Shown here piece after piece: positions 24,749 to 24,910 of a DNA stretch of 39,084 bases. The stretch lies in the NCBI GenBank assembly GCA_035539675.1, contig DATLHW010000117.1, positions 1 through 39,084 on the forward strand, in the 5' to 3' direction. The notes beneath the pieces were generated by a model. The model did not search any database. It worked only from the letters and a program-made list of their open reading frames with translations, and had not been told where the DNA came from. This DNA comes from Burkholderiales bacterium. Lineage in GTDB: Bacteria; Pseudomonadota; Gammaproteobacteria; Burkholderiales; DATLHW01. Position 1 is the first letter of the stretch. Each line of letters starts with the position of its first letter. The translations under genes and the position numbers were made by a program.

Positions 24749-24764
24749 AGCACGACCCGTGCCA
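24749..24764 (-). promoter_or_regulatory. Putative sigma-54 (-24/-12) promoter of the T4SS operon
   Basis: The minus strand reads TGGCACGGGTCGTGCT (consensus TGGCACG-N4-TTGCW, GG-N10-GC spacing, a single G-for-T mismatch in the -12 box). It lies about 115 nt upstream of the virB11 ATG. Confidence 0.6.
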
Positions 24765-24846
24765 TCGCCCGCAAAACAAGTAAGTTGTTGTTTTAAATAA
24801 ATGCAGATGCACTCTTTCGGCTCGGCAGTCGATATGCGCTTGCAGG

Positions 24847-24910
24847 TTTGCAAGTCGCCAACAATTGGGCCTTGCAACTTTGCAAGGTCCATTGCGAACG
24901 TAATTCGCAA
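24847..24910 (-). promoter_or_regulatory. Candidate upstream activator sites (enhancer) for the sigma-54 promoter
   Basis: TTTGCAAG (24847-24854). Perfect 8-2-8 palindrome CCTTGCAA-CT-TTGCAAGG (24870-24887). Perfect 7-5-7 palindrome TTGCGAA-CGTAA-TTCGCAA (24892-24910). All lie roughly 85-160 bp upstream of the -24 element. An IHF-like AAACAACAACTTA (minus strand, 24781-24793) lies in between. Confidence 0.4.

What the first reader, a model, noticed from the sequence alone, without database searches (positions are those of the whole stretch)
24749..24910. Near-consensus sigma-54 promoter with perfect upstream palindromes in front of virB11
The minus strand at 24764-24749 reads TGGCACGGGTCGTGCT. 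This matches TGGCACG-N4-TTGCW with canonical GG-N10-GC spacing and one mismatch.

Upstream of it lie three sites:
- a perfect 8-2-8 palindrome CCTTGCAA-CT-TTGCAAGG (24870-24887);
- a perfect 7-5-7 palindrome TTGCGAA-CGTAA-TTCGCAA (24892-24910);
- an extra TTTGCAAG (24847-24854).

An A/T-rich stretch with an IHF-like AAACAACAACTTA (24781-24793) lies between the enhancer and the promoter. The 134-aa ORF the track predicts over this region looks spurious, so about 800 bp here is probably pure regulatory DNA.
Basis: seen in the sequence. Interest (0 to 1): 0.7.

Follow-up and report, generated by a model that had tools for sequence, protein, structure and literature searches.

The report
Sigma-54 promoter controlling a type IV secretion operon
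A specialised "on-demand" (sigma-54) promoter with two conserved activator-binding sites sits in front of a chromosomal type IV secretion operon. The same gene cluster encodes a matching sensor kinase and activator protein, so the machine is probably switched on by a specific signal, a kind of control my literature searches did not find described for this type of secretion system.

Summary
The sigma-54 interpretation holds, but the support comes from comparative evidence and not from the motif match alone.

- **Conservation:** in five diverged orthologous loci (TrbB/VirB11 78-100% identical), invariant columns in the intergenic DNA concentrate in three blocks. These are the -24/-12 element (GG and GC invariant, spacer free) and two 16-bp dyads, CTTGCAA-N2-YTGCAAG, 32 bp apart at about -108 and -140.
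- **Activator:** the cluster, a P-type Trb system with no relaxase in view, ends with an intact NtrC-type sigma-54 activator and a soluble PBP-GAF histidine kinase.
- **Independent support:** homologues of that activator in two unrelated genomic contexts also sit beside sigma-54 promoters with the same dyad at about -108 to -110.
- **Not supported:** the 7-5-7 palindrome is not conserved and is compatible with chance. The IHF-like site is only weakly supported.
- **ORF:** the 134-aa ORF is spurious.
- **New:** the same 807-bp spacer holds a second, conserved sigma-54-like promoter facing the other way, with the same layout, driving a monooxygenase/acyltransferase operon.

The mechanism is ordinary. 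Its wiring to a type IV secretion system appears undescribed.

The parts
24749..24764 (-). Sigma-54 -24/-12 promoter element of the trb operon, TGGCACGGGTCGTGCT. GG is at 24763-24762 and GC at 24751-24750. The inferred transcription start is about 24738, roughly 100 nt before the trbB ATG.
   Evidence: One mismatch to TGGCACG-N4-TTGCW. It lies at the aligned position in L085, L088, L108 and L090, with GG and GC invariant; 11 of 16 columns are invariant, against 8 of 74 in the flanking spacer. PWM score 13.0 bits. No sigma-70-like site was found on this strand.
24839..24854 (.). Proximal activator dyad A, CTTGCAAACCTGCAAG as read on the minus strand. Its centre is at about -108.5.
   Evidence: 11 of 16 columns are invariant across 5 lineages. 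It is a zero-mismatch TTGCA-N4-TGCAA. A like dyad sits at about -108 to -110 next to homologous activators in L091 and L092.
24871..24886 (.). Distal activator dyad B, CTTGCAAAGTTGCAAG. Its centre is at about -140.5, 32 bp (three helical turns) from dyad A.
   Evidence: 13 of 16 columns are invariant across 5 lineages, against 1 of 16 for the DNA between the two dyads. Repeat family D2/I4.
24781..24793 (-). A/T-rich stretch with an IHF-like AAACAACAACTTA, centre about -49. It is a possible bending site.
   Evidence: One mismatch to WATCAANNNNTTR, but such matches are not enriched in the window. Positions 24771-24810 are 70% A+T. Only the A-run and the TT are conserved. This part is weak.
24892..24910 (.). 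The 7-5-7 palindrome TTGCGAA-N5-TTCGCAA, centre about -163. It is probably not part of the conserved module.
   Evidence: Present and perfect, but absent from L085, L088, L090 and L108. About 0.7 perfect 7-nt palindromes are expected in this spacer by chance.
23583..24635 (-). trbB, the VirB11-family ATPase and first gene of the operon trbB-C-D-E-L-L-F-G-I, a YDG-domain gene, and traG. The operon runs to 10775.
   Evidence: TIGR02782 TrbB_P scores 378 bits against a cut-off of 304.6.
7450..8817 (-). NtrC-type response regulator and sigma-54 activator (REC, AAA+ and HTH_8 domains). It is the proposed binder of the dyads.
   Evidence: Pfam Sigma54_activat 7.8e-64, Response_reg, HTH_8. Walker A is GETGTGKE, the Walker B DE is present, and the sigma-54 contact loop is GSYTGA. 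It stays linked to the Trb cluster in relatives with 85% and 98% identical activators.
4373..7075 (-). Sensor histidine kinase with a LacI-type periplasmic-binding-protein fold, a GAF domain, HisKA and HATPase. No convincing membrane segment. It is the proposed partner of the activator.
   Evidence: Pfam. The best hydropathy peak is 1.96, and it falls within the GAF span (residues 494-631). The kinase is present after the activator in the 98% relative.
25307..25322 (+). Divergent sigma-54-like -24/-12 element, CGGCATGGCTCATGCA. The inferred start is about 25333. It faces the monooxygenase-MBOAT-unknown operon, whose ATG is at 25443.
   Evidence: GG and GC are invariant in L085, L088 and L108. 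PWM scores are 10.8 in the window, 14.7 in L088 and 11.9 in L108.
25182..25228 (.). Two degenerate dyads for the divergent promoter. D1 is TTGCAGAAATGCCC (25182-25195, about -144.5). D2 is 25215-25228, whose reverse complement reads GTGCAGAAATGAAA (about -111.5).
   Evidence: They form a 14-nt inverted repeat that is 93% complementary. D2 is conserved in all four lineages. D1 is conserved in three and degenerate in L088. Each matches TTGCA-N4-TGCAA at 8 of 10 positions.
25276..25288 (+). IHF-like site of the divergent promoter, TAACAATGAGTTA, centre about -51.
   Evidence: TAA(C/T)AA-N4-TT(A/G) is conserved in all four lineages. One mismatch to WATCAANNNNTTR.
10621..10636 (-). Possible internal sigma-54 promoter, TGGCACGGTTGCTGCT, in the traG-SLT spacer. 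A half-dyad, CTTGCAAGCGCGAAAG, lies at 10714-10729 (about -111).
   Evidence: It is the only other site in the window with 1 mismatch or fewer. The dyad has 3 mismatches. It is not conserved in L083. It could not be tested in other lineages.

Best explanation
Positions 24749-24886 form a classical enhancer-dependent sigma-54 promoter for the trbB-first (VirB11-family) type IV secretion operon.

Proposed sequence of events:
1. RNA polymerase carrying sigma-54 sits as a closed complex on TGGCAC-N5-GTGCT.
2. The NtrC-type response regulator encoded at the far end of the cluster (7450-8817) is phosphorylated by the adjacent soluble PBP-GAF histidine kinase (4373-7075) in response to a small-molecule signal.
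3. The phosphorylated regulator binds as dimers to the two TTGCA-N4-TGCAA dyads centred at about -108 and -140, which lie on the same face of the helix.
4. It assembles into the active AAA+ ring, reaches the polymerase by looping across the A/T-rich spacer (possibly helped by IHF), and uses ATP to open the promoter.

The same spacer carries a mirror-image module with weaker dyads (25182-25322). That module would switch on the divergent monooxygenase/acyltransferase operon with the same signal.

Shown here: the sequences, their conservation, their geometry and the gene content. Inferred: sigma-54 dependence, which protein binds the dyads, looping, and the signal.
For: **Motif and position**
- One mismatch to the consensus, in an intergenic spacer, correctly oriented, 113 nt before the ATG.
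- No sigma-70-like promoter on that strand.

**Footprint across five lineages**
- The sigma-54 element reads TGGCACGGGTCGTGCT, ...GGCTCATGCT, ...GGCTCCTGCT, or TGGCATGCCTTATGCT.
- Invariant columns: 13 of 16 in dyad B, 11 of 16 in dyad A, 11 of 16 in the promoter.
- In the intervening DNA and the leader the figures are 1 of 16, 8 of 74 and 7 of 102.
- Distances between the elements are kept to within 2 bp.

**Activator**
- The cluster encodes an intact REC-AAA+-HTH_8 sigma-54 activator and a kinase.
- That linkage is kept in relatives.

**Specificity to this clade**
- Among 80 more distant TrbB/VirB11 loci, none has a site with 1 mismatch or fewer within 500 bp upstream. There is one such site in 977 kb of strand sequence overall.

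**Cross-check from other genomes**
- Activator homologues 66-67% identical sit in other contexts: a type IVb pilus cluster in Massilia (L091), and a yceG/RND neighbourhood (L092).
- Both lie beside sigma-54 promoters with CTTGCGGCTTTGCAAA or CTTGCAAACCTGCCAT at about -108 to -110.
- All share the recognition-helix sequence INYS(M/T)LYRKMK.

**Half-sites**
- They match known sigma-54 activator sites: LuxO ttgcaNNNtgcaa (PMC10328515) and HrpS TGCAA-N4-TTGCA at -138/-125 (PMC8657755).

**Geometry**
- From my own recollection, not checked here: the spacing resembles the two NtrC sites of E. coli glnAp2 at about -140 and -108.
Against: - There is no expression, transcription-start or binding data. 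The organism is known only from metagenome contigs, so the presence of rpoN could not be checked.
- The curated-PWM score (13.0 bits) is not above the whole-window background. The median best score in randomised windows is 14.5.
- The -15 position is G, A or C, never the consensus T.
- The activator's sigma-54 contact loop is GSYTGA and not GAFTGA.
- The activator gene is 16 kb from the promoter, with a 415-bp gap in front of it, so assigning it to these dyads rests on linkage and on the two homologue cases.
- The five lineages are related by descent, so they are not independent samples.
Confidence: 0.72

Rival explanations
1. The sigma-54 promoter is real, but the dyads are bound by a different NtrC-family activator encoded elsewhere in the genome. 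The cluster's own regulator would then control something else, for example only the SLT genes or itself.
For: The activator gene lies 16 kb away behind a 415-bp gap. Bacteria often carry many related sigma-54 activators (7431 hits at E<=1e-60). TTGCA/TGCAA half-sites are used by several activators.
Against: The activator and the Trb cluster stay together in relatives. Homologous activators in two other contexts have the same dyad at the same distance from an adjacent sigma-54 promoter. The recognition helix is conserved.
Confidence: 0.14
2. The dyads are operators for a conventional repressor or activator, for example the nearby LysR-type regulator, acting on a sigma-70 promoter. The -24/-12 match would be incidental.
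For: The PWM score alone is not above the window background. A LysR gene lies at 2307-3260. Any 14-16 bp palindrome can fit a T-N11-A box.
Against: GG and GC are invariant and stay at a fixed distance from the dyads in five lineages, while the surrounding DNA has diverged. No sigma-70-like site is found on that strand. Dyads at -108 and -140 are too far upstream for a LysR-type arrangement. A mirror-image module has the same layout.
Confidence: 0.06
3. The inverted repeats are a transfer origin or some other DNA-processing site of a former conjugative element, not transcription signals.
For: The system is a P-type Trb conjugation-type machine with a TraG coupling protein. Transfer origins are rich in inverted repeats.
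Against: No relaxase gene was found in the annotated part of the window, positions 1-2300 apart, or in the related contigs. The repeats keep a fixed distance to a -24/-12 element. The same dyad occurs beside non-conjugative genes in L091 and L092.
Confidence: 0.02
4. Chance similarity with no function.
For: About one PWM hit of this strength is expected per window. The IHF match and the 7-5-7 palindrome are at chance level.
Against: Conservation is block-wise in five lineages. No such site occurs in front of 80 more distant homologues.
Confidence: 0.02

Closest known systems
E. coli/Salmonella glnAp2 with NtrC (NRI) and NtrB
   Same: A -24/-12 sigma-54 promoter with two dyad-symmetric activator sites about three helical turns apart, near -140 and -108 (recalled from memory, not checked here). 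The activator is a REC-AAA+-HTH_8 response regulator phosphorylated by a partner kinase.
   Different: The site sequence is TTGCA-N4-TGCAA and not TGCACC-N5-GGTGCA. The target is a secretion machine, not nitrogen assimilation. The kinase has PBP and GAF sensor domains.
Vibrio LuxO at the qrr promoters
   Same: An NtrC-type sigma-54 activator whose sites use the same half-sites, ttgca...tgcaa (PMC10328515 Table 1). LuxO structures are among the PDB matches.
   Different: The half-sites are separated by 3 nt in LuxO sites and by 4 nt here. LuxO is fed by a phosphorelay and controls small RNAs. No orthology is claimed.
HrpS/HrpR at hrpL (type III secretion in Erwinia and Pseudomonas syringae), and VasH-type activators of type VI secretion
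   Same: A sigma-54 activator dedicated to switching on a secretion system. The HrpS enhancer TGCAA-N4-TTGCA at -138/-125 uses the same pentamers (PMC8657755).
   Different: HrpS has no receiver domain and acts through an ECF sigma cascade. Here the activator is a two-component response regulator, and the sigma-54 promoter sits directly on the structural operon of a type IV system.
VirA/VirG with vir boxes (Agrobacterium and Mesorhizobium VirB systems), and BatR/BatS (Bartonella). From my own knowledge.
   Same: A two-component system encoded next to a type IV secretion cluster makes its expression depend on a signal.
   Different: Those regulators are OmpR-type and act on sigma-70 promoters. 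Here the regulator is an AAA+ sigma-54 activator working at a distance.
PilR/PilS and Npa/Nps control of type IV pilin genes
   Same: A sigma-54 promoter, an NtrC-type response regulator and IHF in front of a surface-filament gene (PMC6528607 abstract). A 67% homologue of this activator sits next to a type IVb pilus cluster in Massilia behind a perfect sigma-54 promoter.
   Different: The target machine differs (Trb-type type IV secretion against type IV pili), and so do the kinase architecture and the site sequence.

Membership tests
Sigma-54 (-24/-12) promoter class | GG and GC doublets exactly 10 nt apart within TGGCACG-N4-TTGCW | tested here: met
   TGGCACGGGTCGTGCT has one mismatch, at -15.
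Sigma-54 (-24/-12) promoter class | Score against curated promoters above the genomic background | tested here: inconclusive
   13.0 bits with a PWM built from 18 E. coli promoters. Leave-one-out scores of the known promoters range from 2.2 to 20.4. It ranks third in the window. About 1 such hit is expected per window, and 0.01 in this spacer on the right strand.
Sigma-54 (-24/-12) promoter class | Selective conservation of the two doublets in orthologous upstream regions | tested here: met
   GG and GC are invariant in 5 lineages while the spacer varies. 11 of 16 columns are invariant, against 8 of 74 nearby.
Sigma-54 (-24/-12) promoter class | Transcription depends on rpoN and starts about 12 nt after the GC | not testable with these tools
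   There is no culture, no transcript data and no complete genome to check for rpoN.
NtrC-type enhancer (upstream activating sequence) | Dyad-symmetric sites about 80-150 bp upstream, phased on one face of the helix | tested here: met
   Two dyads centred at -108.5 and -140.5, 32 bp apart, conserved in 5 lineages.
NtrC-type enhancer (upstream activating sequence) | A cognate activator with an AAA+ sigma-54 interaction domain, a GAFTGA loop and a C-terminal HTH | tested here: met
   REC, Sigma54_activat and HTH_8 domains with Walker A and B motifs. The loop is GSYTGA, a variant. The threonine is retained. Relatives carry GAYTGA or GAFTGA.
NtrC-type enhancer (upstream activating sequence) | The activator physically binds the sites | not testable with these tools
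   Only indirect support: the same dyad at the same distance lies beside homologous activators in L091 and L092.
NtrC-type enhancer (upstream activating sequence) | An IHF site between the enhancer and the promoter (optional feature) | tested here: inconclusive
   A one-mismatch match that is not enriched over chance and is loosely conserved. The site on the divergent side is well conserved.
LuxO binding site | TTGCA-N3-TGCAA | tested here: not met
   The half-sites are identical, but the spacer is 4 nt in every copy.
P-type (Trb) type IV secretion system | TrbB, TrbC, TrbD, TrbE, TrbL, TrbF, TrbG, TrbI and the TraG coupling protein | tested here: met
   The NCBIfam TrbB_P, TrbL_P and TrbG_Ti equivalogs, and the TrbD, TrbE and TraG subfamily models, all score above their cut-offs. 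No TrbJ was recognised.
Self-transmissible conjugative element | A relaxase and a transfer origin next to the mating-pair genes | tested here: not met
   No relaxase domain was found among the ORFs scanned in the window or in the called genes of the related contigs. The context is chromosomal: gspDEF, FAA hydrolase and hgmA.

The most novel reading that the evidence does not exclude
A former conjugation machine (P-type Trb, with no relaxase in view), fixed at one chromosomal site in an uncultured soil and rhizosphere lineage that is probably Burkholderiales, has been placed under a dedicated sigma-54 switch.

A cytoplasmic PBP-GAF kinase senses a metabolite. An NtrC-type activator then fires two back-to-back sigma-54 promoters. 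Together these turn on the secretion apparatus and a divergent monooxygenase/acyltransferase operon that may modify the pilin or a substrate.

This would be the first described sigma-54/enhancer-dependent type IV secretion system, and it comes with a defined activator recognition motif, TTGCA-N4-TGCAA.
Probability: 0.45. Interest if true: 0.6.

Novelty: new variant of a known kind. Interest (0 to 1): 0.5.

Why it matters
Sigma-54 control is well documented for flagella, type IV pili, and type III and type VI secretion. Neither the two sigma-54 reviews I checked nor five literature searches link it to type IV secretion.

Sigma-54 promoters are silent without their activator. This wiring therefore implies that the Trb machine is kept fully off until a specific intracellular signal appears. 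That fits an effector-delivery or contact-dependent role better than housekeeping conjugation.

The result also provides several things that can be used directly:
- a ready-made, testable regulon definition (dyad plus -24/-12 at fixed spacing);
- a recognition motif for an uncharacterised activator subfamily that annotation pipelines currently label 'DctD' or 'NtrC';
- a compact bidirectional signal-dependent promoter cassette.

If it is wrong, the cost is small, because the mechanism itself is textbook.

Tried and rejected
- **Plasmid database search:** only distant trbB hits of 66-72%, so this is not a known plasmid.
- **GTDB representative genomes:** the closest TrbB is 64-67% identical. 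None has a sigma-54 site upstream, so the control is clade-specific and could not be traced further back.
- **Rfam:** no RNA family in the spacer.
- **Sigma-70 and terminator scan:** nothing on the trbB strand.
- **134-aa ORF:** no Pfam hit. Non-coding codon usage and no protein-level conservation. Rejected as a gene.
- **7-5-7 palindrome:** rejected as part of the conserved module.
- **IHF site:** consensus counting is not significant.
- **Tandem-dyad pattern search in metagenomes:**
  - Most hits were CTTGCAAG satellite repeats.
  - One new orthologue was found (L108).
  - One unrelated A/T-rich group turned up in front of a cytochrome c gene.
- **Conservation of the second promoter at 10621-10636:**
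  - It is absent in L083.
  - The only other contig ends 60 bp after traG.
  - The 98% relative has no retrievable DNA.
- **Barrios 1999 promoter compilation:** not held, so the 18 E. coli promoters of PMC2831329 were used.
- a script call that returned nothing; it was rerun.
- **Activator homologues at 66-67% identity:** they are not linked to type IV secretion, so the association is narrow.

Full report
**1. What is in the sequence**

- The minus strand at 24764-24749 reads TGGCACGGGTCGTGCT. GG is at 24763-24762 and GC at 24751-24750, exactly 10 nt apart. There is one mismatch to TGGCACG-N4-TTGCW.
- The downstream ORF (23583-24635, minus strand) starts 113 nt after the motif.
- The 'extra TTTGCAAG' is one arm of a second 16-bp dyad, CTTGCAGGTTTGCAAG (24839-24854). 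This dyad repeats the 8-2-8 palindrome core, CTTGCAACTTTGCAAG (24871-24886), 32 bp away.

**2. Is the motif more than chance on its own? Only weakly**

- At 1 mismatch or fewer the window has 2 consensus matches against 0.52 expected.
- I built a weight matrix from the 18 established E. coli sigma-54 promoters listed in PMC2831329.
  - The site scores 13.0 bits. That is comparable to fdhF, ygjG or atoD and is third best in the window.
  - Randomised windows reach a median best score of 14.5.
  - About one such hit is expected per window, although only 0.01 within this spacer on the right strand.
- The IHF-like match is at chance level: 35 sites against 27.7 expected.
- One perfect 7-nt-arm palindrome in the spacer is unremarkable, since 0.73 are expected.

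**3. Gene context**

- The operon behind the promoter is a P-type Trb system: TrbB (equivalog score above its cut-off), TrbC, TrbD, TrbE, two TrbL, TrbF, TrbG, TrbI, a YDG-domain protein and the TraG coupling protein. Two SLT transglycosylase genes follow.
- Immediately after these come an NtrC-type response regulator with a sigma-54 interaction domain (7450-8817) and a 900-aa histidine kinase. The kinase has a LacI-type binding-protein fold and a GAF domain, with no convincing membrane segment.
- The activator is intact. It has the receiver Asp, Walker A GETGTGKE, the Walker B DE and a Fis-type HTH. Its sigma-54 contact loop is the variant GSYTGA.
- No relaxase gene was found among the ORFs I scanned. 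The flanks are chromosomal: gspD/E/F, FAA hydrolase, and homogentisate dioxygenase in relatives.
- The window matches an ENA soil-type metagenome contig. Nothing similar exists in the plasmid collection.

**4. Comparative evidence, which decides the matter**

TrbB homologues 78-83% identical led to four further distinct upstream regions: L085, L088, L090 and L108.
- All four carry the -24/-12 element at the aligned position: TGGCACGGCTCATGCT, TGGCACGGCTCCTGCT, TGGCACGGCTCATGCT and TGGCATGCCTTATGCT. GG and GC are invariant while the N4 spacer changes.
- Both dyads are kept, with the same 32-bp spacing and the same distance to the promoter, to within 2 bp.
- In the five-way alignment the invariant columns number 13 of 16 (dyad B), 11 of 16 (dyad A) and 11 of 16 (promoter). 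The figures are 1 of 16 between the dyads, 8 of 74 between dyad A and the promoter, and 7 of 102 in the leader.
- The module stays with trbB even where the divergent neighbour differs (L088).
- Eighty more distant TrbB/VirB11 loci have no such site within 500 bp upstream. This is therefore a clade-specific acquisition.
- With C(-12) at 24750, the inferred start is about 24738. The dyad centres then fall at -108.5 and -140.5. As I recall it, this is the geometry of the two NtrC sites at glnAp2.

**5. Who binds the dyads?**

- The activator gene stays linked to the Trb cluster in contigs whose activator is 85% and 98% identical.
- The next-nearest homologues (66-67%) are in unrelated contexts: beside a type IVb pilus cluster in Massilia sp. 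erpn (L091), and beside yceG/RND genes (L092).
- In both cases the adjacent spacer has a strong sigma-54 promoter: TGGCACGAGTGTTGCT with no mismatch, and TGGCACGCCAACTGCT.
- In both cases a dyad also sits at about -108 to -110: CTTGCGGCTTTGCAAA and CTTGCAAACCTGCCAT.
- The recognition-helix region INYS(M/T)LYRKMK is shared.
- This supports, independently of the Trb loci, the idea that the activator subfamily recognises TTGCA-N4-TGCAA.
- The half-sites are those of LuxO sites (ttgcaNNNtgcaa; PMC10328515) and of the HrpS enhancer (TGCAA-N4-TTGCA; PMC8657755), but the spacing differs.

**6. Elements that do not hold up**

- The 7-5-7 palindrome (24892-24910) is absent from every orthologue.
- The IHF-like AAACAACAACTTA lies in a 70% A+T stretch at about -49. 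That is a sensible place, but only an A-run and a TT are conserved.
- The 134-aa ORF is not a gene.
  - Its codon-usage score is 0.017, against 0.18-0.27 for the genes used to train the score.
  - It has no family match.
  - Its only cross-lineage similarity is the 22 codons that overlap the dyads.

**7. A second module**

The far half of the same 807-bp spacer (24636-25442) carries a conserved mirror-image arrangement on the plus strand.
- A -24/-12 element, CGGCATGGCTCATGCA (25307-25322). GG and GC are invariant in four lineages.
- A well-conserved IHF-like TAACAATGAGTTA (25276-25288, about -51).
- Two degenerate dyads, at 25182-25195 and 25215-25228 (about -144.5 and -111.5). They form the 93%-complementary inverted repeat seen.
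- It faces the luciferase-like monooxygenase / MBOAT / 431-aa operon. In L085 the partner gene is a TraX-family acyltransferase, and in L088 and L108 it is a large membrane protein.
- The spacer is therefore a bidirectional sigma-54 control region.

**8. A possible third promoter**

- The only other consensus match with 1 mismatch or fewer (10621-10636, TGGCACGGTTGCTGCT) lies in the traG-SLT spacer, correctly oriented. A half-dyad sits at about -111.
- It is not present in the L083 lineage.
- It could not be examined elsewhere, so it remains a lead.

**9. Novelty**

- The mechanism is textbook: sigma-54, an NtrC-type activator, an enhancer and possibly IHF.
- Its target is unusual. Five full-text searches combining sigma-54 or RpoN terms with type IV secretion, virB11 or trbB terms returned no paper describing such control. 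Neither did two sigma-54 reviews (PMC8657755, PMC3162934). Absence from this library is not proof of absence from the literature.
- I rate it a new variant of a known kind, of moderate interest.
- The main uncertainties are the lack of any expression or binding data, and the lack of a complete genome in which to confirm rpoN.

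Noticed in passing
window 25182-25322 (+): A conserved divergent sigma-54-like promoter (CGGCATGGCTCATGCA) with two degenerate dyads and a well-conserved IHF-like site. It faces the monooxygenase/MBOAT operon, so the spacer is a bidirectional sigma-54 control region.
   Followed up: yes
window 10621-10636 (-) and 10714-10729: A second near-consensus sigma-54 site (TGGCACGGTTGCTGCT) in the traG-SLT spacer, with a half-dyad at about -111. It is absent from the L083 lineage and was untestable elsewhere.
   Followed up: partly
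window 25443-29570 (+); L085 2900-5078: The divergent operon encodes a luciferase-like monooxygenase, an MBOAT acyltransferase and a 431-aa protein of unknown function, with apparent translational coupling. In L085 a TraX-family (pilin-acetylase-like) gene takes the MBOAT position. The operon may modify the pilin or a substrate.
   Followed up: no
window 33361 onward, compared with L081 1-1275: The window is 99.8-99.96% identical to ENA contig k141_594604 over 13535-33361. Beyond 33361 it carries gspD/E/F where the contig, and also L085 and L088, carry homogentisate dioxygenase. This is either a rearrangement or an assembly join.
   Followed up: partly
L091 11597-11704 and 7362-7377 (Massilia sp. 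erpn CP053748): A 67% homologue of the activator sits next to a type IVb pilus cluster, behind a perfect sigma-54 promoter with the same dyad about 110 bp upstream. A second one-mismatch sigma-54 site precedes a CesT-like gene.
   Followed up: partly
L098 2381-2600 (also L100, L102, L103, L112): An A/T-rich organism has the same tandem dyads (CTTGCAATTTTGCAAG-N16-CTTGCAATTCTGCAAG). TTGGCACAATTGTATAG follows about 134 nt downstream of the start of the first dyad, with no canonical GC at -12. The downstream gene encodes a small secreted c-type cytochrome.
   Followed up: partly
window 24736-24750 (-): The bases just after the -12 element (CTC-A-GG-A-A...) are conserved across all five lineages, beyond what the sigma-54 consensus requires. 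The site at 10621 shares TGCTCAAG.
   Followed up: no
window 17081-20352 (-) and 12818-13687 (-): There are two tandem TrbL/VirB6 genes (618 and 462 aa) and a YDG-domain protein between trbI and traG. No TrbJ/VirB5 was recognised. Relatives such as L083 have one TrbL and no YDG gene.
   Followed up: no
window 7450-8817 (-), residues about 228-233: The activator's sigma-54 contact loop is GSYTGA and not GAFTGA. Close relatives have GSYTGA or GAYTGA, and more distant ones have GAFTGA.
   Followed up: partly
window 8234-8249 (-); L083 11257-11272: A two-mismatch sigma-54-like string lies inside the activator's own coding sequence and recurs at about the same place in the 85% relative. It most likely reflects protein-coding constraint.
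   Followed up: no
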